Part shown: positions 4,382-13,709 of the stretch, piece by piece | How positions within the stretch are numbered: position 1 is the stretch's first letter | How the letters are laid out: every line of letters starts with the position of its first letter | Source: a virus | Lineage: Duplodnaviria; Caudoviricetes | Reading direction: 5' to 3' (one strand) | DNA: 54,541 nucleotides | IMG/VR virus record: IMGVR_UViG_3300022602_000128 | Span: 1 to 54,541 of that record | Program-made: the position numbers and the translations under genes | Notes under the pieces: generated by a model | What the model saw: the letters and a program-made list of their open reading frames with translations, nothing else | Database searches by the model: none | Told to the model about the DNA's origin: nothing

Positions 4382-4413
4382 TAAGAAACTCCTTTAAATA
4401 ATTGGCTTTGTAA

Positions 4414-4430
4414 TTCTATTTACAATAGAA
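4414..4430 (-). promoter_or_regulatory. Late promoter box (GTAAATA) inside a 7-bp inverted repeat
   Basis: TTCTATT-GTA-AATAGAA on the minus strand, about 35 nt upstream of the 403-aa gene. Confidence 0.6.
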
Positions 4431-4481
4431 CTGTAAAATATGCGTAATATACGTGTTTTTTAAGGTATTTTAGGCAACTAA

Positions 4482-4733
4482 CTATAAGCCGGGTATTGCG
4501 CCCATGCCTCCACCCTCTTCTGCGGGTGCCGCATACTGTGATTGTATGGTCTCGAGTTTCTTTTCAAACTCAAATTTACGCACATCATTTGCCATTCTCA
4601 AGCGATTTAAATGTGCTAATGTTAGTCGTGTTTTGCGTAGATCTGATAATTTCATGGTGGAATTATCATCTTTTTCTGTTTGGTATCCGGGCTTTGCGGG
4701 CTCCGGACTTTCAATAAGATCTAATATAAACAT
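4482..4733 (-). CDS. Small head-module protein (gp67/gp68 position), function unknown
   Basis: 83-aa ORF directly after the portal gene, with its own TATAAATA box 7 nt upstream of the ATG. Confidence 0.75.
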   Translation of the reverse strand: MFILDLIESPEPAKPGYQTEKDDNSTMKLSDLRKTRLTLAHLNRLRMANDVRKFEFEKKLETIQSQYAAPAEEGGGMGAIPGL

Positions 4734-4740
4734 AGTAAAG

Positions 4741-4748
4741 TATTTATA
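4741..4748 (-). promoter_or_regulatory. T4-type late promoter TATAAATA
   Basis: Exact gp55 consensus, 7 nt before ATG 4733. Confidence 0.85.
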
Positions 4749-4759
4749 GCAAAGCGGTA

Positions 4760-7121: not shown

Positions 7122-9839
7122 TTATGCGGTTGCATTTAGAAGTTTCTGAGTCAGATCTTTGTGATCTTTAACATGGCTCACAAGTTCTTTGCTTTGGTCT
7201 AGGTGTTGTTGCATGATACCGCTTAATTGATTGATACTTTCTGTCATGTCAGCACGGGGTGTTGCAGATCCCGGAAATGTTAGTTCAGTTTTGGTAGAAG
7301 CAACTTTGACATCCTTGAGACTGTTGGTCAACGAATCCGTCATTTGTTTTACCATTGTCGACATCATAGCATTGATTGGGGAATTGCCAGTGGCCAAATC
7401 CATTTGATTTGATAATCCGTTTATTGATGTAACTAAGTCTGCATGGTCTTTGGCAGTGGGCATGGCAGTCATCATTGTTTTTAGATTATCCGACATGTCG
7501 GCAGTTTGCTTGTTAACTAATCCCAGTAAGTCGTTATGGTCCCGCATTGCGCCGTTGTTGGTAATTGACGCTGACAAGTCACCCAAGTTAAACGTGTCTT
7601 TTATAGTACGATTAAAAGAATTTATAATATCAGTTAGATAACTGGGTGCAGTATTCTGCTTAGAGTCTTGCATTCCCTTCATTGATTCGTTCATTGATGT
7701 TAATATACTAGAGAATCCGCCCATGTTAATGGGGATAGATCTTCCGTCTGGTAATGGAACGTGTGCTTCGTTCATGCCGTTTTCGCTGACCAATGCCACT
7801 TGACCCTTGGGCGTTGATATACCGCCGTCAGCAAAGCCCAACATGTCAGATAATTTAGATCCGGCTGCCATACCAATTGCGCCGCCTTCCAGGGCTCCCA
7901 ATGGGGACAAAGCACCGCCTGATACCACTGCGGCGCCTGCCCCGCCTATAGCCCCACCAATCAAAGTGCCAGCACCAATTGTTGTTACTTTGCCAATTGT
8001 TTTTAATGTGCTCTTTATAGTGCCCCAAACTCCGCTTTCGGCACCCTCACCATTGCCAAGACCAACATCTTTTAGCATTTTTCTAACACCACTGAGCATT
8101 TCCTTGGACACGTTGGCAAAGTCTTTGATAGCCGGAGTCAGTTCATCCTGTAGAGCAATTTTTAAATTTTGAGCCGCAGTTTCTGCACCCATTACAGAAT
8201 CCTGCAATTTACCGTTGGCACCCGCGGCTGCTTCTGTTGCATTAGTAGCGGTGTCTAAATTCTTTTCAGTTAGTTTGTATTGTGCTTGTCCCAAAGAATC
8301 AGCACTCTTGGCCAAGTTATTGAGTCCGTCAGCGCCAGCGATTGCACCAGTGGATATTGCTTTGGCAGTGTCACCATAGCGGCTTTCGAAGTTGTCGTTT
8401 GCTCTAGCAAAACCACCAGTCAAGTCTTTAAGGCTTGAATTTCCTCGTTCTAGACTTTGTGCGAATTCTCGGCCAGCATCTGCTTGGCCCAATACGTTTG
8501 CAGACACATCGGTAACTGCCCCACCCAACACTGTGGCTTGTATGGCGGCACGTTGTTGTGTTTCATCCATCAATGCCAAACTTGCTCGCACTCTTGCTGG
8601 CAAGCCTGGATCATTTGTGCGTTTGGCTATTTCATTTACTTTGGCAAAGAAAGCATATTGCTCTGCTTGTTTCTTTGCTTGATCCATCTTGGCTTTGGCA
8701 TCCTCGCCCATAATGTCAGCAACTGTTCTTATGTTCTTGGCCATCTCGGTAGTGGCCTGGGCTACTTGTGCATTGGTGGCAGTGCCGCCAGTTCTCTTCA
8801 AGTCCGATGTCATTTGAGCAACCAAGTTTGCTTGATCCTCAAAACTATAGCCTAGATTTAATAATTCATTTTGTAAACTTTTACCGCTCTTGCCTGTTTG
8901 TGTTGCTAGGTTACTAGTGACTCCGGCAACAATTTTTGCTCCACCGGCAACAGTGTAGCCCGATTCAGCCAATAAGCCCGCATTGTTCTTGATTACGTTT
9001 GAAAATTGATCTACAGTAAGTCCTGCTTGACCCGAATACTTGCGTAAATCATCCATGCCCTGTGCAAATGTAGCACCACTGGCTGTTGCATCATTAAATG
9101 CTTTGACTGTTTTTTCTACTTCTTTGCTTAATACTTCTACACCAAACTTGGCCAGTTTGCTGGCATTTTCTCCCAGTGCACCCAGTAATGGGCCAACAAC
9201 TGAAACAATATTACCAAATCTCTTAATCGCCGGACTGGCGCTGGTTGACATTATTTGCCCAAATGTGCCCGCGGCTTGACCGGCGGCTGCGGCTGTTTGC
9301 CCCTCCATGTCATATTGGGCCTGCATCAGTCCACTGGCTAACTCTATACCAGACTGACCGCTTTGTAGTCCCTTGACAAAAGCACCAACGCCCTGCACAC
9401 CAGACGATGCCACTTTACCCAATGCTTTGCCAAGATTCTTAGTGGTTTCAATTGTGTCGGATTTTACTGCTTCGTCTCTAAGTGCATTGCGTTTGGCCAA
9501 CAGTTCGTCTCGGGCTTTTTGCTCGTCACGAGTCTTTGCGTTTTTGGTAGCCTCTTCAATTGCCTTGTCTAGTGCATCCAATTCATCCTTGAAGTTGGAC
9601 AAGGCATTGGGTGTTGGCGACAACATTTTACTAAAACTTGTGGTTTTTTCGTTGGCTTTCTTTAAAGAAGCAGTATATCGTTCAGTTTGTTTAGACAGGG
9701 TGTCTAAATCTGCGGCTAACTCATCAATGGTTTTGCCTGCCCCGTAAACAGCACCACCCTTGGCTCCACCAGACTGCCTACCAGCAGTACGCATCTCGTC
9801 CAAGAGGTTCTTGAGTAGGCCTTTGATTTCGTCATCCAT
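7122..9839 (-). CDS. Tape-measure/baseplate-hub protein (gp29-like role)
   Basis: 905-aa Ala/Gly/Leu-rich helical protein with a hydrophobic GA-rich segment and the FADGG...LVSENGMNEAHVPL motif common in tape-measure proteins. Divergent from the gp26-like chaperone. Confidence 0.75.
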   Translation of the reverse strand: MDDEIKGLLKNLLDEMRTAGRQSGGAKGGAVYGAGKTIDELAADLDTLSKQTERYTASLKKANEKTTSFSKMLSPTPNALSNFKDELDALDKAIEEATKNAKTRDEQKARDELLAKRNALRDEAVKSDTIETTKNLGKALGKVASSGVQGVGAFVKGLQSGQSGIELASGLMQAQYDMEGQTAAAAGQAAGTFGQIMSTSASPAIKRFGNIVSVVGPLLGALGENASKLAKFGVEVLSKEVEKTVKAFNDATASGATFAQGMDDLRKYSGQAGLTVDQFSNVIKNNAGLLAESGYTVAGGAKIVAGVTSNLATQTGKSGKSLQNELLNLGYSFEDQANLVAQMTSDLKRTGGTATNAQVAQATTEMAKNIRTVADIMGEDAKAKMDQAKKQAEQYAFFAKVNEIAKRTNDPGLPARVRASLALMDETQQRAAIQATVLGGAVTDVSANVLGQADAGREFAQSLERGNSSLKDLTGGFARANDNFESRYGDTAKAISTGAIAGADGLNNLAKSADSLGQAQYKLTEKNLDTATNATEAAAGANGKLQDSVMGAETAAQNLKIALQDELTPAIKDFANVSKEMLSGVRKMLKDVGLGNGEGAESGVWGTIKSTLKTIGKVTTIGAGTLIGGAIGGAGAAVVSGGALSPLGALEGGAIGMAAGSKLSDMLGFADGGISTPKGQVALVSENGMNEAHVPLPDGRSIPINMGGFSSILTSMNESMKGMQDSKQNTAPSYLTDIINSFNRTIKDTFNLGDLSASITNNGAMRDHNDLLGLVNKQTADMSDNLKTMMTAMPTAKDHADLVTSINGLSNQMDLATGNSPINAMMSTMVKQMTDSLTNSLKDVKVASTKTELTFPGSATPRADMTESINQLSGIMQQHLDQSKELVSHVKDHKDLTQKLLNATA

Positions 9840-9907: not shown

Positions 9908-10750
9908 ATGTCTGAGCAACAATCAAACCCTTTAGCCAACTTCTTTCGTCAGCCCGCAATCTACATCAAACTGCCCAGTGGGGGCAAATGGTGGAAAGAC
10001 GGCAGTTTGGAACTGACTGTGACCGGGGAAATAGGGATTTATCCCATGACCACGAAAGATGAAATAACACTAAAAACACCCGACGCACTAATGAATGGTC
10101 AGGGTGTAGTGGATGTTATTCAAAGTTGTGTGCCATCAATTAAAAATGCGTGGGATATGCCCAGTATTGATGTGGATGCAGTACTTATTGCCATACGCAT
10201 TGCCAGTTATGGTGAAAACATGGAGTTTGAAAGCACTTGCCCGCATTGCAATGAAGAAAACAAACACGAGATTGATCTCAAAGGGCCACTAAGTGGAATC
10301 CGATCACCGGACTACAGCCAAACAGTAGTATACAAGACATTGAAAATCAAATTGCACCCACAGAACTATTATGCAGTTAATAGATCCAATCGAGTTAACT
10401 TTGAGGAACAAAAGATATCCGACGCACTGAACATGGGCAAAGATGTCGATCCCGAAGTCAAAGTCAAGTATTTGACTGAGAGCATGAGCAGACTAATCGA
10501 ATTGGGCTTGGAATCAATAACTGCCAGTGTGGAGTATATTGAGATGGAAGATGGTGCTAGGATTGACAACAAGGCGCATATCAAGGACTTCTTTAAAAAT
10601 GCCGAAGCCAGCGTGGTGCGTTTAGTCCAAGACAAACTCAGCGATCTAGCAGAACAAAGCAAGATACAACCAGCAAAACTACAATGCATGGAGTGCACAA
10701 AACCCTATGAAGTGGCATTGTTGTTTGATTACTCTAATTTTTTCGGTTAA
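9908..10750 (+). CDS. gp26: Baseplate hub assembly/tail chaperone, T4 gp26-like
   Basis: YIKLPSGG, PMTTKDEITLK, IDVDAVLIAIRIASYGE and two CxxC pairs (CPHC, CMEC). Ends in NFFG. Confidence 0.8.
   Translation: MSEQQSNPLANFFRQPAIYIKLPSGGKWWKDGSLELTVTGEIGIYPMTTKDEITLKTPDALMNGQGVVDVIQSCVPSIKNAWDMPSIDVDAVLIAIRIASYGENMEFESTCPHCNEENKHEIDLKGPLSGIRSPDYSQTVVYKTLKIKLHPQNYYAVNRSNRVNFEEQKISDALNMGKDVDPEVKVKYLTESMSRLIELGLESITASVEYIEMEDGARIDNKAHIKDFFKNAEASVVRLVQDKLSDLAEQSKIQPAKLQCMECTKPYEVALLFDYSNFFG
10738..10744 (+). other. Candidate -1 programmed ribosomal frameshift site T TTT TTC
   Basis: In-frame X XXY YYZ heptamer two codons before the stop. The -1 frame is open to 10977. Confidence 0.7.
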
Positions 10751-10977
10751 GGCTTTTATCAATAACTGATGATGCCGAACTCATTAAGTTCTTGGAACGA
10801 TATGAGAAACAGGTAAAAGCCTTAAAGCATGAAGCACTTACTATGGCATGGCATATGAGAGGTGGGTTAACTTATGCCGAAGTGATGTCAATAGGAGATC
10901 AAGAAAGAACTATTATATCAGATATAGTCAAAGATCACATAGAAGCAACTAAAAAATCAGGACTTCCTTTCTTCTGA
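10744..10977 (+). CDS. Small baseplate/tail chaperone segment (gp51-like position), probably expressed as a frameshift extension of the gp26-like protein
   Basis: Open -1 frame RLRLLSITDDAELIKFLERYEKQ...WHMRGGLTYAEVM...KSGLPFF. The ORF-track start (TTG 10792) has no evident SD. Confidence 0.65.
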   Translation, partial: RLRLLSITDDAELIKFLERYEKQVKALKHEALTMAWHMRGGLTYAEVMSIGDQERTIISDIVKDHIEATKKSGLPFF

Positions 10978-11016
10978 TTTTCTTTTCAATTCTTTGAGTT
11001 TGTTATGTTCCTTAAG

Positions 11017-11099
11017 AGATGTCTAAAGACATCTGTTGTTGCGCTATCGCTTACAACATTATTCTTTAATTATTGATTAAAAACTTTACGAAGTAAAGT
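11017..11099. repeat. Cluster of short inverted repeats in AT-rich non-coding DNA
   Basis: AGATGTCT-AA-AGACATCT (11017-11034), TGTTG...CAACA (11037-11058), TTAAT...ATTAA (11066-11080) and ACTTTAC-GAA-GTAAAGT (11083-11099). Confidence 0.8.
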
Positions 11100-11469
11100 A
11101 AAGGCCATTCATCCAGAACAAGCAGTCACACTTTGCCCGATAAACGGGCAAAAAATGATTTCATCCGAGACGCACAATCATCAGCGTTAGGGCATTGCAG
11201 AGGCGGTTGACCTGTACCTCGAGCCCCGTCTTTTATTCAACGGCAGTTAATATAATATACGCAGACATACTATATTAACCTGTGGGAGTTACCCACTCAT
11301 TTAGCCTTGGTTTAATTCTTTTCAAATAGCAAAACCGGTTGTATGAAGGCATATCCGATCGTCGTCCTGTTAAGGATAGTTGCTAAGTGCTCTGTACGGC
11401 GCAGAGTCTTCCGTCCGAGTGACACGTAGTCCTCTTGTCTTGGGCACACGTTTTTAACTTGTGCGAGTC
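11083..11469 (-). ncRNA. Candidate large structured non-coding RNA, family not recognised
   Basis: No ORF of 60 aa or more. At least ten stems are visible by eye, and several contain G-U pairs only on the minus strand. Begins immediately after the GIY-YIG stop. Confidence 0.65.
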
Positions 11470-11904
11470 TTAACCGTTTAATTTGTTTAGTATGTGGGAG
11501 CCATGGACACGGACTTGTATATGTCCGTTATAGTAATCTGTAGATTCTAATACTCTATTTGTAAATTGCTCGCGGGCTTCAATGTAACTACATTCTGCCT
11601 TGCTTTTGCAATAATAGAGTATTTCTCTGGTAAAGTTTTCGGTGCCATGAGTTTGAACGTCTTTGTTGAGTTGGTCGTTAGAGCCATAATATGTAAGCCA
11701 ATCGGAATCTACTTTTGATCGTATTTTCTTCTTTTTCTTGGTGCCGTTCTTGAGTTTTACAGTTTTGTAAGATGTTTTTGCGAATTTCGCTAGTTTTTTG
11801 CCTATGTACTTTTTGCCAGATAGATTATTAGTGATAAGATACACAAAACCCACACAGTCTTCGGGAAGTTCCTGTACAGGTGAGTTCTGAAATATCCATG
11901 TCAT
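11470..11904 (-). CDS. Short GIY-YIG endonuclease with a Lys-rich insertion
   Basis: GFVYLITN...KYIGKK, SDWLTYYGS, FTREIL...E and YYNG motifs. Basic segment KTVKLKNGTKKKKKIRSK. Late-box variant TAACTA 6 nt upstream. Confidence 0.88.
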   Translation of the reverse strand: MTWIFQNSPVQELPEDCVGFVYLITNNLSGKKYIGKKLAKFAKTSYKTVKLKNGTKKKKKIRSKVDSDWLTYYGSNDQLNKDVQTHGTENFTREILYYCKSKAECSYIEAREQFTNRVLESTDYYNGHIQVRVHGSHILNKLNG

Positions 11905-11939
11905 GTAATATAGTTATGATTGTTGGAGCCATGATTAAA

Positions 11940-13709
11940 TTATTTTATTTCAATATCAGTATTATATGTTGTGAATCCGTTTTCTTTGACAACGTGCAGG
12001 GTATTATGAACCCGTCCTGCCAATTCATCCTTGTGAGATACCAACCAAATACTCTTGTTGGCATCCCGGCTCATCTTTTTAAGTATCCCGAGACTGTTTT
12101 CAACCCCACTGCTGTCCATTCCGCTGTCAATAAGTTCGTCAATGAATAACAGGTTAATGGGCTGGTATAGGCTTTCCCATACATCACGGAAACTCCAACT
12201 CAGGGATAAGATCAAACGATTGCGCTCTCCCCTACTCAAATTGTCAAAGTCCAGTTCTCTGCCCAGTTCGCTGATACTAACAGTCAAATCGTTATTGAAC
12301 TTGACAGTGTGCGGTAGGCCTATGCGATCTAAGTATTGCCCCAATCGTGCATTTAGATAACTTAAATTTTGATCAATGATACGTTTGCGAATAAACGAAT
12401 CCTTGTTAGTCAGTAACTTGTGTAAGAACTCTTGATGCTGTTTAACACGATCAAGTTCATTCATTAAGTCGTAATTGACATCTTCCAGTGCTTGTTCACT
12501 CATGTCCTTGATCTGTTCAGCATAGGGGTCAGATTCTTCTTGCTTGGCAGTTAACTGTGCAAGAATACTGCCCATACTACTTCTATGTTCAAATGCATCT
12601 GATTCATTGGTATAGTAAACTGTGGGCTTATCGCCTAGTTCGCCCAATGCAGTCAACGCCTCGGTATTCTCCAGCCATTGCGTATGGGCCGCAAGTGCAT
12701 TGAGTGCAGTGTCGCTAATTTGCCTTTGCTTGTCCTCAAGCATTTGTTCATGATTGTCGTCATGCAAGTCCTGTCCACAAGCATGGCACTGGTGATTTTG
12801 CAAGGCCTCTAGTTCGGCCCGTAGTCGAGCCAACACTTTGTCTTCTCTGGCTTGGTCACGTTCGTTTTGTGCAATGTAACCTTTGATCTTGTCTATTTCG
12901 GCTTTCTTCTTGTTGTACTCATTTAACTTTTGGTGGGCCACTAGTTCTGATTCAATGTCTAAGGCATTTAGTTCGTCAAATGACGCAACCAACTTGTCTA
13001 AATCTTCGTCTTTCTTTCTAAGCCAAAGCGTTTGCCTGCGCTTTAGATTTTCTATTTGTTCTTGTATACGTGCATTGGCATCAGTTACTGCTTTGATTCT
13101 ATACTCCTCTTGAGTAATAGCATCCTTGGTAACTTTGACTTGTTCTTTAAGCAATTCTGCTTTTTCACTTAACAGTGTAATACCCAATAACTGCTCAATG
13201 ATAGTTCTTTGATCATTGGCTTTTAACGATAAAAACGGTTCAGTATAGGTGTTTAAAGCCACAATGTGTTTAAACATGTCATGGCTCATGCCCAACATAC
13301 GTTCTATCTCTGCTTGCGTTTCTCGGCTATCGCCCTGTGCTTCGTCTGTGATCTCTTTTTCTTGATCGTTCACAAAGAATCGCATAACATTGGGTTTACG
13401 CCCACGTTCAATTCTATAGGTTGCACCATCTTTCTCAAAGTCAATAGTCACCATCATACCTTTGGTATTGGTTTTATTGATCAAGTTGTCTTTCTTGATA
13501 TTGGTTAGAGCATTGCCGTAAAGGGCATAACTCAATGCATTGATAATAGTTGTTTTACCAGTACCATTGCGTGCACCCGAATCATCTCCACCCAAGTCCA
13601 AGTTTTCACCCAGCACCAGAGTTAAATCATTGCGATCAAAACTGACGGCTTGTGTGGAGTTACCCACACTCATAAAGTTTCTAACTGTTAAATCTTTTAT
13701 TTTAAACAT
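11940..13709 (-). CDS. gp46: Recombination nuclease ATPase subunit, gp46/Rad50/SbcC
   Basis: Walker A NGTGKTT, coiled coil with CHAC zinc hook, signature LSRGE, Walker B LLFIDE and H-loop VSH. Confidence 0.96.
   Translation of the reverse strand: MFKIKDLTVRNFMSVGNSTQAVSFDRNDLTLVLGENLDLGGDDSGARNGTGKTTIINALSYALYGNALTNIKKDNLINKTNTKGMMVTIDFEKDGATYRIERGRKPNVMRFFVNDQEKEITDEAQGDSRETQAEIERMLGMSHDMFKHIVALNTYTEPFLSLKANDQRTIIEQLLGITLLSEKAELLKEQVKVTKDAITQEEYRIKAVTDANARIQEQIENLKRRQTLWLRKKDEDLDKLVASFDELNALDIESELVAHQKLNEYNKKKAEIDKIKGYIAQNERDQAREDKVLARLRAELEALQNHQCHACGQDLHDDNHEQMLEDKQRQISDTALNALAAHTQWLENTEALTALGELGDKPTVYYTNESDAFEHRSSMGSILAQLTAKQEESDPYAEQIKDMSEQALEDVNYDLMNELDRVKQHQEFLHKLLTNKDSFIRKRIIDQNLSYLNARLGQYLDRIGLPHTVKFNNDLTVSISELGRELDFDNLSRGERNRLILSLSWSFRDVWESLYQPINLLFIDELIDSGMDSSGVENSLGILKKMSRDANKSIWLVSHKDELAGRVHNTLHVVKENGFTTYNTDIEIK

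What the first reader, a model, noticed from the sequence alone, without database searches (positions are those of the whole stretch)
11083..11904. Candidate large ornate ncRNA attached to a short, basic GIY-YIG nuclease gene
Seen: this is the only long ORF-free interval in a densely coding 54 kb, and it looks more GC-rich than the other spacers. Read on the minus strand from the nuclease stop, the stems are: GCACA/UGUGC (11464-11444); CUCUG/CAGAG (11406-11390); a junction closed by UAGCAA/UUGCUA (11385-11327) holding UCCU/AGGA and GAUCGG/CCGGUU plus UAUG/CAUA; GUGGG/CCCAC (11296-11282); a 15-bp stem GGUUAAUAUAGUAUG/UAUAUUAUAUUAACU (11280-11245); CCGUU/GACGG; GAGGU/GCCUC (11220-11200); UGAUU/AAUCA; UUUGCCCG/CGGGCAAA (11152-11132); and a final hairpin with a U-run at 11099-11079. 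The non-Watson-Crick positions in several stems are G-U on the minus strand but would be A-C on the plus strand, which points to selection on a minus-strand RNA. The loop UCUGCG can pair at 5 of 6 positions with CGCUGA (11186-11181), a possible pseudoknot, and GGAUGAA occurs twice near the 3' end. The upstream 144-aa nuclease has no separate DNA-binding domain but carries a poly-Lys insertion. Inference: a nuclease-RNA ribonucleoprotein (guide, scaffold or ribozyme), or a replication-primer RNA. I do not recognise it as a known RNA family.
Basis: partly seen in the sequence, partly recalled or inferred. Interest (0 to 1): 0.82.

Follow-up and report, generated by a model that had tools for sequence, protein, structure and literature searches.

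The report
Phage RNA with twin seven-letter words
The gap behind a small nuclease gene of a giant freshwater T4-like phage encodes a large, knotted non-coding RNA: its first third is an already catalogued orphan motif, and the rest is unlisted and shows the same freely varying seven-letter word twice, which no known RNA mechanism readily explains.

Summary
Window 11079-11469 (minus strand) is a conserved structured RNA.

- **Known part.** Bases 11469-11324 are Rfam RF01718, Polynucleobacter-1 (95.7 bits, cut-off 37). The RNA is therefore not wholly unknown.
- **Unlisted part.** The remaining ~245 nt match nothing in Rfam.
- **Twin words.** A 7-nt word stands twice, after CUC and after UCU, 47-74 nt apart. 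The two copies are identical in 100 of 100 aligned relatives. The word itself differs between relatives (14-15 forms).
- **Copy number.** The RNA is single-copy in two complete ~346-kb phage genomes.
- **Link to the nuclease.** The GIY-YIG gene lies upstream in 83 of 88 RNA loci. Four loci carry a PD-(D/E)XK nuclease instead, never both. The GIY family also occurs in 413 cultured-phage records, and the two nearest examined lack the RNA. The link is therefore strong synteny, not a shown ribonucleoprotein.
- **Function.** Unproven. I favour a trans-acting RNA whose twin words read one partner.
- **Expression.** No expression data were available.

The parts
11079..11469 (-). Whole conserved non-coding RNA: 5' domain, two hairpins, pseudoknotted 3' core, twin words, end hairpin.
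   Evidence: nhmmer over the whole length in 45 of 80 loci, and over the 3' part only in 20 more. Covariation.
11324..11469 (-). 5' domain = Rfam RF01718 (Polynucleobacter-1). It starts at the base after the GIY stop codon.
   Evidence: 95.7 bits against a gathering score of 37, model positions 1-141 of 141, E 2e-19.
11282..11296 (-). Small hairpin GUGGG/CCCAC.
   Evidence: Three inner pairs covary in 78 type-A sequences, for example GC 32, CG 23, UA 13.
11245..11280 (-). Long AU-rich hairpin. Its 6-nt loop UCUGCG (11265-11260) forms pseudoknot PK2.
   Evidence: Inner 5 pairs covary. The loop is 6 nt in 70 of 84 sequences, consensus UUAGCG.
11181..11186 (-). CGCUGA, the partner of the hairpin loop in pseudoknot PK2.
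   Evidence: 55 of 70 sequences pair 6 of 6, against 38% after permutation. Compensatory sets include UUAGUG/CACUAA, UUAACG/CGUUAA and CUAGCA/UGCUAG.
11189..11241 (-). Pseudoknot core. Pa: 11241-11237 with 11210-11206. Pb: 11227-11223 with 11193-11189. Pc: 11220-11217 with 11203-11200. Invariant loop GGUAC.GG...ACCGCC.
   Evidence: Pa is paired in 23 of 23 sequences, with 3 of 5 pairs changed on both sides, on an alignment not fitted to the structure. Pb and Pc.
11160..11169 (-). First copy: CUC plus the word GGAUGAA, in the loop of a variable hairpin (Pd).
   Evidence: Pd duplex energy is -6.35 with its own partner against -5.13 permuted.
11132..11152 (-). Hairpin Pe, UUUGCCCG/CGGGCAAA.
   Evidence: 98.5% of cells paired, with 4 of 8 pairs changed on both sides.
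11108..11117 (-). Second copy: UCU plus the word GGAUGAA, in a single-stranded stretch before the end hairpin.
11079..11103 (-). End hairpin (CUUUAC...GUAAAG) plus UUUUU, terminator-like.
   Evidence: Read from the sequence. Relatives carry a UUCG-loop hairpin at the same place. Not flagged by the consensus scan.
11017..11057 (-). Two further conserved hairpins beyond the U-run: GUUGUAAGCGAUAGCGCAACAAC and AGAUGUCUUUAGACAUCU. Whether they belong to the RNA is uncertain.
   Evidence: Conservation bump. Like hairpins in relatives. Strand not settled.
11470..11904 (-). 144-aa GIY-YIG nuclease gene.
   Evidence: Pfam PF19835, 114.9 bits. Invariant F20, V21, Y22, Y33, I34, G35, R93, E94, N126 in 20 sequences.
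11910..11917 (-). ATAACTAT, part of a motif (CATAACTATA-like) conserved 8-40 nt before the GIY start codon in relatives.
   Evidence: Not enriched in the window. Not complementary to the RNA.

Best explanation
**What it is.** Window 11469-11079 (minus strand) encodes one single-copy, multi-domain, structured non-coding RNA of a lineage of giant (~346 kb) T4-like freshwater phages.

**How it is made (inferred).** It is transcribed behind, and probably together with, a conserved small GIY-YIG nuclease gene at the end of the gp47-gp46 operon. It ends at a hairpin plus U-run where transcription from the baseplate genes converges.

**Architecture.**
- An exchangeable 5' domain: RF01718 in this window (type A), an unrelated ~190-210-nt domain in type B, and yet another in type C.
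- Two hairpins.
- A conserved 3' core tied together by two pseudoknots (Pa, and the hairpin-loop pseudoknot PK2).
- The core displays the same 7-nt word twice: once in a hairpin loop after RACUC, and once in a single strand after RAUCU.

**How I think it works (inferred, not shown).** It is a stable trans-acting RNA, and the twin words are its specificity element. Both copies must read the same partner. I favour base pairing with one complementary strand that is present twice or bound in turn. This would explain why each letter may change only if its twin changes too.

**The nuclease.** The neighbouring nuclease gene is a tightly linked neighbour and a possible but unproven partner.
For: **Identity.** RF01718 scores 95.7 bits against a cut-off of 37 over the full model. 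No other Rfam match appears at E up to 5.

**Conservation.**
- At least 584 viral contigs encode the GIY protein.
- Of the best 80, nhmmer finds the RNA in 69: 45 whole, 3 cut by the locus end, 1 partial and 20 with the 3' part only.
- My 3'-core model hits 100 of 100 chosen sources over its full length.

**Structure.**
- On the fitted alignment, 94.6% of cells are paired against 77.1% shuffled. The covariation score is 0.502 against 0.167 (0 of 500 shuffles reach it), and slid controls give 0.06-0.10.
- On the unfitted alignment the values are 90.9% against 79.2%, with Pa paired in 23 of 23.
- PK2 is supported by compensatory changes.

**Modularity.** RF01718 is found in 10 of 10 type-A loci scanned and in 0 of 18 type-B loci. 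The type-B 5' region has mean column identity 0.81.

**Twin words.**
- The longest shared string between the two flanks of Pe is at least 7 nt in 100 of 100 sequences, against 2 of 100 after shuffling.
- The identical block is 7 nt in 81, 8 nt in 17 and 9 nt in 2.
- There are 15 words among 136 distinct loci, one of them perhaps a false hit. Remote members keep the identity with other words: ACGAAAU, AUGAAGAG, UGGUAAU and ACAUGAA.
- Mutual information between the twins is 1.0 bit, against at most 0.32 with any other column.

**Single copy.** One match in each of 5 records, two of them 99-100% complete at ~346 kb.
Against: - There is no expression evidence at all.
- No partner was found. There is no consistent complement in cis within -400 to +500 nt. 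There is none in the window beyond the gene's own antisense.
- In two complete genomes the complement plus three purines occurs 7 and 8 times, the same as the reversed-pattern control.
- Seven nucleotides is short for a specific pairing.
- Where a cis pairing of the first copy with AUCU is possible, the partners of the variable letters are an invariant U or a mismatch, so pairing in cis does not explain the identity (read by eye).
- The end hairpin is a weak terminator.
- Co-transcription with the GIY gene is inferred only from the missing gap.
- One weak model hit (L157, 23 bits) lacks twin words.
Confidence: 0.45

Rival explanations
1. Nuclease-RNA particle. The RNA scaffolds or guides the nuclease encoded beside it, which has no binding domain of its own. 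The twin identical words would direct a dimeric enzyme to two equivalent sites, for example the two strands of an inverted repeat.
For: - GIY lies within 2.6 kb upstream in 83 of 88 RNA loci.
- The twin-word RNA lies within 2.6 kb downstream in 66 of 72 GIY loci, and two more have it with other flanks.
- A PD-(D/E)XK_15 gene is found in 4 of 200 sequences, and these are exactly loci without GIY. This looks like replacement of one nuclease by another in the same slot.
- The GIY domain fills residues 3-129 of 144.
- The words vary without any matching change in the GIY protein (mutual information at most 0.36), as expected if specificity sits in the RNA.
Against: - The GIY family is present once each in 413 cultured-phage records. 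Only the two nearest were examined, and both lack the RNA and lack room for it.
- The RNA occurs in other contexts with neither of these two nuclease genes found beside it (L092, L171, and L116 with an unrelated 175-aa ORF).
- In about a dozen loci, 1-2 kb lie between the GIY gene and the RNA core motif, against 200-290 nt in the rest.
- 7-nt words are far shorter than known guides (guide lengths recalled, not tested).
- The locus is a plastic region with variable inserts on both sides, so gene swaps may be unrelated to the RNA.
Confidence: 0.15
2. Protein decoy or platform. The two RAYYY-plus-word elements are two equivalent binding sites for the two halves of a dimeric RNA-binding protein of phage or host. 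The RNA would sequester or deliver that protein.
For: - The correspondence is position by position and in parallel register, which is what two identical protein subunits would impose.
- The 5' flanks RACUC and RAUCU are constant.
- No nucleic-acid partner was found.
Against: - 14-15 different words, some unrelated (ACGAAAU, AUGAAGAG, UGGUAAU), would need as many co-evolved protein specificities.
- The neighbouring GIY protein shows no such co-variation.
- No candidate protein was identified.
Confidence: 0.15
3. Cis-acting 3' element of the gp47-gp46-GIY transcript. The structure would protect the mRNA end, stop transcription at the convergent junction or set processing sites. The words would then be two identical cleavage or pause sites.
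For: - The RNA starts at the base after the stop codon and ends at a hairpin plus U-run facing the convergent genes.
- Further hairpins follow in relatives.
- Weinberg 2010 lists the 5' motif as possibly cis-regulatory (table row seen).
Against: - Some 390 nt with two pseudoknots and exchangeable 5' domains is far more than a terminator or stabiliser needs.
- The 3' core also occurs behind other genes (L092, L171).
- Identical but freely varying words are not explained by one conserved processing enzyme.
- No gene follows on the same strand here, so a 5'-UTR role is excluded for this locus.
Confidence: 0.1
4. Copy-and-jump template or excised unit. The identical words are donor and acceptor sites that let a nascent complementary strand re-anneal (template jumping, as described for some reverse-transcriptase defence RNAs and for telomerase; recalled). 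Alternatively they mark the ends of a ~50-nt unit that is cut out and joined.
For: - This is the one class of mechanism that directly demands identity in parallel register with a free choice of sequence and no complement in cis.
- The unit between the words holds a strong hairpin (Pe).
Against: - The flanking genes identified in the related loci (gp46, gp47, GIY or PD-(D/E)XK, the 61-aa ORF, the baseplate protein) include no reverse transcriptase. Reverse transcriptase was not searched for.
- Unit length shows no clear three-base periodicity (mod 3: 49, 26 and 25 of 100).
- There are no read data to look for joints or cDNA.
Confidence: 0.05

Closest known systems
Rfam RF01718, Polynucleobacter-1 RNA motif (Weinberg et al. 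2010, PMC2864571; I saw only the table row, supplements closed)
   Same: The first 146 nt match the full model at 95.7 bits. Ten of 10 type-A relatives scanned also match, at 72-120 bits. The listed habitat is fresh water and estuary, and the function is unknown.
   Different: The family model is 141 positions. Here it is only the 5' third of a ~390-nt RNA. The 3' core is the more widespread part: it also occurs with other 5' domains (types B and C) and once in a genome-collection contig (L302). In this locus it lies 3' of a gene, not in a 5' UTR.
Phage T4 gene 60 translational bypass element (recalled knowledge)
   Same: Matched words about 50 nt apart with a hairpin between them. The word is followed by UGA or UAA in the common forms (NNA URA N). 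T4-like phage. In T4 it travels with a mobile endonuclease gene.
   Different: The identity spans 7 nt, not one codon. The second copy would also be followed by a stop. Spacer lengths before the first copy vary by 7, 8, 9 or 10 nt (read by eye from the alignment), so no frame is kept. Remote members (ACGAAAU, AUGAAGAG) have no stop. Rejected as a mechanism.
RNA-guided mobile-element nucleases and recombinases (TnpB/IscB omega RNAs, IS110 bridge RNAs; recalled, abstracts seen)
   Same: A structured RNA is encoded directly beside a nuclease gene, with a short variable segment set in a conserved scaffold.
   Different: Other nuclease folds (GIY-YIG, PD-(D/E)XK). Words of 7 nt in two identical copies rather than one long guide or two different loops. 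No transposon ends. The protein family is common without the RNA.
Free-standing Seg-type GIY-YIG homing endonucleases of T4, including SegB beside the tRNA genes (recalled)
   Same: The best Pfam family is the SegE GIY-YIG domain. The gene sits next to a conserved RNA gene in a plastic region of a T4-like genome.
   Different: No C-terminal binding domain. One copy in each of 413 cultured-phage records and conserved gene order. The protein is more conserved (71-92%) than the baseplate protein (24-55%) and often more than gp46 (53-92%) in the same loci. This looks like a resident gene, not a roaming one.

Membership tests
Rfam RF01718 (Polynucleobacter-1) | Score at or above the curated gathering score over the whole covariance model. 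| tested here: met
   95.7 bits against 37, model positions 1-141 of 141, window 11324-11469 minus strand.
Rfam RF01718 (Polynucleobacter-1) | The family model accounts for the whole element. | tested here: not met
   About 245 further conserved, covarying nucleotides lie 3' of the match. No other Rfam family matches at E up to 5.
GIY-YIG nuclease superfamily (SegE-type domain, PF19835) | Domain match above the cut-off, with the GIY and YIG motifs and conserved Arg, Glu and Asn present. | tested here: met
   114.9 bits against 25, residues 3-129. F20, V21, Y22, Y33, I34, G35, R93, E94 and N126 are invariant in 20 sequences. The catalytic roles of these residues are inferred from recalled I-TevI data.
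Seg-type free-standing homing endonuclease | A separate C-terminal DNA-binding domain. | tested here: not met
   144 aa in all. Only 15 residues lie beyond the domain.
Seg-type free-standing homing endonuclease | Sporadic presence and variable insertion sites. | tested here: not met
   Same gene order in most of the 80 loci where the flanking genes are in view. One place per record in 413 cultured-phage records.
RNA-guided nuclease systems (omega RNA or CRISPR kind) | Obligate pairing of the protein family with its RNA. | tested here: not met
   The RNA lacks GIY in 5 of 88 loci. GIY homologues of Melnitz-3 and ACP17 have no RNA. Only 2 of 413 records were examined.
RNA-guided nuclease systems (omega RNA or CRISPR kind) | A guide long enough for unique targeting, with a matching target. 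| tested here: not met
   The variable block is 7 nt. There is no excess of complements in two complete genomes.
Programmed translational bypass (gene 60 kind) | Matched take-off and landing words inside one reading frame. | tested here: not met
   The words match. No conserved frame, read by eye from the alignment. Spacing is not in threes.
Type III toxin-antitoxin RNA | Tandem whole-unit repeats upstream of an endoribonuclease toxin gene. | tested here: not met
   Only about 25 nt of partial likeness plus a 7-nt identity, and it lies downstream of a DNA-nuclease-type gene. No tandem-repeat search was run.
Stable expressed non-coding RNA | A discrete transcript with defined ends. | not testable with these tools
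   The run search listed no holder recorded as RNA.

The most novel reading that the evidence does not exclude
The twin 7-nt words are a programmable two-fold address. The RNA lends sequence specificity to the binding-domain-less nuclease encoded beside it. That nuclease is GIY-YIG in most phages and a PD-(D/E)XK enzyme swapped into the same slot in a few. The pair would direct a dimeric enzyme to two equivalent sites. This would be a new kind of RNA-directed nuclease in giant phages, unrelated to the RuvC/HNH lineages.
Probability: 0.1. Interest if true: 0.95.

Novelty: new variant of a known kind. Interest (0 to 1): 0.74.

Why it matters
**It redefines an orphan motif.** RF01718 has stood since 2010 as a 141-position motif of unknown role. 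These data indicate it is one of several exchangeable 5' domains of a much larger, doubly pseudoknotted phage RNA. That RNA is present once per genome in ~346-kb T4-like freshwater phages.

**It shows an unusual kind of co-variation.** The two 7-nt words co-vary by identity, not by complementarity. Standard structure-finding tools do not look for this. Only a few mechanisms predict it: a shared partner strand, a symmetric protein, or template jumping.

**It gives a direct test.** Change one word, then restore the match by changing the other.

**It may bear on the nuclease question.** A nuclease gene of one of two unrelated folds almost always sits beside the RNA. This makes the locus a candidate, though unproven, for an RNA-assisted nuclease.

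Tried and rejected
**Readings tested and rejected**
1. Translational bypass or a small ORF. Spacers before the first copy differ by 7-10 nt (by eye). Spacing between the copies is mod 3 = 49, 26 and 25. Remote words lack a stop.
2. A complement of the words in cis. No consistent place within -400 to +500 nt, allowing at most 1 mismatch and Watson-Crick pairs only.
3. Pairing of the first copy with AUCU before the second copy. It is seen in many minimum-energy folds. It is absent in remote members, and it does not explain the identity.
4. A helix between the two spacers X1 and X2. Own partner -3.52 against permuted -3.49 kcal/mol. It covaries only in three type-C sequences, read by eye.
5. A hairpin around the second copy. 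Own -4.35 against permuted -4.26.
6. Co-variation of the words with GIY residues. Mutual information is at most 0.36.
7. A partner elsewhere in the phage. The window holds only the gene's own antisense sites. Two complete genomes give 7 and 8 matches, equal to the controls.
8. The conserved motif before the GIY start pairing with the RNA. No better than shuffled.
9. It is displaced by Pa and Pb.

**Searches that found nothing useful**
10. blastn of the RNA against 50,697 GenBank phage records found no match.
Only 1 (L302) is the RNA. This says little about bacteria.
12. RNA evidence: no RNA holder listed. Read laying was not used because only DNA contigs were offered.
13. Single-sequence folding z-scores do not separate the strands.
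14. RNAalifold on the plain MAFFT alignment of 96 sequences gave only 7 pairs, because types A and B were out of register. I therefore built model R1.
15. The promoter and terminator consensus scan found nothing above chance.
16. Papers. 'Polynucleobacter-1' appears in 1 paper, where I saw one table row. Two further searches found nothing on such an RNA. Passages of PMC9964418 were read and are not relevant. Supplements are closed, and the 2010 paper's motif description may lie there.

**Rows dropped before counts**
- For A1: 10 of 124 unique sequences longer than 185 nt, and then 19 that were more than 93% alike.
- For A2: 23 of 61 type-A sequences were kept, those less than 86% alike.
- searched 100 chosen sources: the 95 of A1, the window, L087, L101, L171 and L302.
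- The 164 of 164 count holds only for copies that fit NNAURAN. Searches are the unbiased counts.
Full report
**Setting.** The window is a 54.5-kb fragment of a virus record, with CheckV completeness 16%. Around the finding, the minus strand carries a Metallophos protein (gp47-like), a 589-aa AAA_23/SMC_N protein (gp46-like) and a 144-aa GIY-YIG protein. On the plus strand, a 61-aa ORF and a T4 baseplate protein converge on them. Two related records are 99-100% complete at ~346 kb, so this is a lineage of giant T4-like phages. The best DNA holders among public runs are labelled pond metagenome; they may be the source sample.

**The observation.** With ORFs of 90 aa or more masked, 10751-11469 is the longest free stretch. 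It is 719 nt, or 492 nt without the 61-aa ORF. Stretches of 378 and 278 nt exist elsewhere. GC is 0.455 at 11100-11299 against 0.409 for the window. No tRNA or tmRNA lies in the window.

**What is already known.** Rfam's gathering scan of the whole window gives one match: RF01718, Polynucleobacter-1, at 11324-11469 on the minus strand. It scores 95.7 bits against a cut-off of 37 and covers model positions 1-141 of 141.
- A permissive scan of 10700-12100 adds nothing at E up to 5.
- The match begins at the base after the GIY stop codon.
- The full-text library holds the family name in one paper (Weinberg 2010, PMC2864571), where I saw only its table row: RNA 'y', cis-regulatory 'y', switch '?', Burkholderiales, fresh water/estuary. 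Its supplements are closed.

**The RNA is longer than the family.**
- The GIY protein has at least 584 relatives in viral contigs. The best 80 are 71-92% identical.
- Gene order is conserved: gp47, gp46, a variable insert of 0-2 kb, GIY, RNA, a variable insert of 0-2.5 kb, then the convergent 61-aa ORF and the baseplate gene.
- Profile nhmmer finds the region behind GIY in 69 of the 80 loci. Forty-five cover the whole ~355 nt, 3 are cut by the locus end and 1 is partial. I call these type A. Twenty match only the last ~135 nt, and I call these type B. Eleven show nothing, and two of those end right after the gene.
- RF01718 is present in 10 of 10 type-A loci scanned, in 0 of 18 type-B loci and in 0 of 9 loci without a hit.
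- Type B carries its own conserved 5' region of ~190-210 nt, with mean column identity 0.81 in 32 sequences.
- Five loci that nhmmer had missed give weak full-length hits to my 3'-core model at 22-28 bits. I read three of them and call them type C: the pseudoknot part differs but the twin-word part is kept.
- The 3' core is therefore the common element, and the Rfam motif is one of several 5' domains.

**Structure.** I built a covariance model (R1) from 23 diverse type-A sequences with three helices. It matches 100 of 100 chosen sources over its full length at 34-154 bits.
- On that fitted alignment, 94.6% of cells pair against 77.1% after shuffling. The covariation score is 0.502 against 0.167 (0 of 500 shuffles reach it), slid controls give 0.06-0.10, and 11 of 17 pairs change on both sides.
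- On the plain MAFFT alignment, which is not fitted, the same helices plus a pseudoknot helix Pa give 90.9% against 79.2% and 0.339 against 0.137. Pa pairs GUUGA (11241-11237) with UCAAC (11210-11206). It is paired in 23 of 23 sequences, with double changes at 3 of 5 pairs.
- In the middle region, the small hairpin and the inner part of the long AU stem covary in 78 sequences.
- The 6-nt loop of the long stem (consensus UUAGCG, UCUGCG here) pairs with CGCUNN downstream. Fifty-five of 70 sequences pair 6 of 6, against 38% after permutation. Compensatory sets include UUAGUG/CACUAA, UUAACG/CGUUAA, CUAGCA/UGCUAG and CUGAUA/UAUCAG.
- About 140 of 1695 paired cells are G-U (my sum of the table), which fixes the minus strand as the RNA strand.
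- Folding of the single sequence is only modestly better than shuffles (z -2.1) and about the same on the other strand (z -2.4).

**The twin words.** After Pb, a variable hairpin (Pd) shows RACUC plus 7 nt in its loop. After the hairpin Pe, a single strand reads RAUCU plus the same 7 nt.
- In 100 of 100 aligned sequences, the longest string shared by the two sides of Pe is at least 7 nt, against 2 of 100 after shuffling.
- Counted from CUC and UCU, the identical block is 7 nt in 81, 8 nt in 17 and 9 nt in 2. The tail beyond 7 nt is about what chance would add.
- A pattern asking only for CUC-N7, 30-80 nt, then UCU and the same N7 hits the window once, on the minus strand at 11169. It hits reversed control sequence 3 times in 1.57 Mb.
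- The word differs between phages: 15 forms in 136 distinct loci, one of them perhaps a false hit. Remote members keep the rule with unrelated words: ACGAAAU in L171, AUGAAGAG in L101, UGGUAAU in L087 and ACAUGAA in type C.
- Mutual information between twin positions is 1.0 bit, against at most 0.32 with any other column. The letters therefore drift freely but only together, in parallel register.
- One weak hit (L157) lacks the rule.

**What the words do not do.**
- They have no steady complement in cis.
- They do not form a reading frame or a bypass site.
- They do not track GIY residues.
- They have no excess of complements in the window or in two complete genomes.
- The flank after the first copy is complementary both to the spacer before it (Pd: -6.35 against -5.13) and to the spacer before the second copy (-8.51 against -7.13). 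Two alternative folds are therefore possible.

**The nuclease link.**
- From the protein side, 66 of 72 GIY loci with at least 700 nt downstream have the twin-word pattern within 2.6 kb. L020 and L081 have the RNA with other flanks. L030, L060, L062 and L065 have none.
- From the RNA side, 113 of 119 loci found by the core motif are real. Eighty-three of 88 with at least 1300 nt upstream have GIY within 2.6 kb. The five exceptions are L087, L092, L101, L162 and L171.
- Three of these, and L143, carry a PDDEXK_15 gene beside the RNA (E 1e-24 to 1e-26). That gene is found in 4 of 200 sequences, all of them without GIY.
- L092 and L171 have quite different neighbours.
- The GIY family occurs once each in 413 GenBank phage records at under 60% identity: cyanophages, the OM43 phage Melnitz at 52%, Acidovorax ACP17 and others.
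- The two nearest records examined leave 148 nt and 0 nt after the gene. They show no R1 hit at E up to 1 and no twin-word pattern.
- The protein keeps the GIY and YIG motifs and invariant R93, E94 and N126. It has no separate binding domain.
- The link is therefore close synteny with a striking nuclease-for-nuclease swap, but the family does not depend on the RNA.

**Copy number and spread.**
- There is one R1 match in each of five large records.
- No GenBank phage matches the RNA by blastn.

**Reading.**
- Shown: a conserved, modular, doubly pseudoknotted RNA gene on the minus strand, with RF01718 as its 5' domain here, twin identical words, single copy, and tight synteny with a small nuclease gene.
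- Inferred: co-transcription with GIY, the end at the U-run, and a trans-acting role.
- My favoured mechanism: both words read the same partner, most simply a complementary strand present twice or bound in turn. This rests on the logic of the identity rule, not on a found partner. I give it 0.45.
- Rivals: a nuclease-RNA particle (0.15), a platform for a dimeric protein (0.15), a cis-acting 3' element (0.10), and a copy-and-jump template or excised unit (0.05).

**Limits.**
- There are no expression data.
- The paper's supplements are closed.

Noticed in passing
window 11905-11939 (motif at 11910-11917, minus strand); L002-L200 upstream of the GIY start: A motif like CATAACTATA or GATAACTA lies 8-40 nt before the GIY start codon in most relatives, whatever lies further upstream. 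It is not enriched in the window (8 matches against 6.4 expected) and is not complementary to the RNA. It may be a gene-specific promoter or operator.
   Followed up: partly
window 11017-11057; same place in relatives: Beyond the U-run, relatives share a hairpin of the form stem-GA-GC-GAAA-GC-GAA-stem (GUUGUAAGCGAUAGCGCAACAAC here), followed by a perfect hairpin. In some relatives its letters recall the hammerhead core (UGAUGAG...CGAAA), but it is a closed hairpin and Rfam gives no match.
   Followed up: partly
L163, L042, L015, L075 and others, just after the second word: A subset of relatives has AUCGCUUCGCUCUU(U/A/G) directly after the second word, where others have a UUCG-loop hairpin. GCUCUUUA resembles a boxA element (recalled).
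   Followed up: no
L101, L143, L162, L087: A ~170-aa PDDEXK_15 nuclease gene replaces the GIY gene beside the RNA. It is found only in loci that lack GIY, 4 of 200.
   Followed up: yes
L171 (RNA at 7747-7920): A remote copy of the 3' core (50 bits, word ACGAAAU) sits among bacterial-looking genes, including a phosphorylase-family gene (Pfam) and what look by eye like a Bug-type binding protein and a ferredoxin-reductase-like ORF. This may be a prophage or a bacterial contig filed as viral.
   Followed up: partly
window 4382-4759: A second stretch of 378 nt without an ORF of 90 aa or more, GC 0.37. No Rfam family matches there in the gathering scan of the whole window.
   Followed up: no
L091, L096, L097, L104, L123, L151, L152 and others: In about a dozen loci, 1-2 kb lie between the GIY gene and the RNA core motif, against 200-290 nt in the rest. 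The content of the extra DNA was not examined.
   Followed up: no
   Followed up: partly
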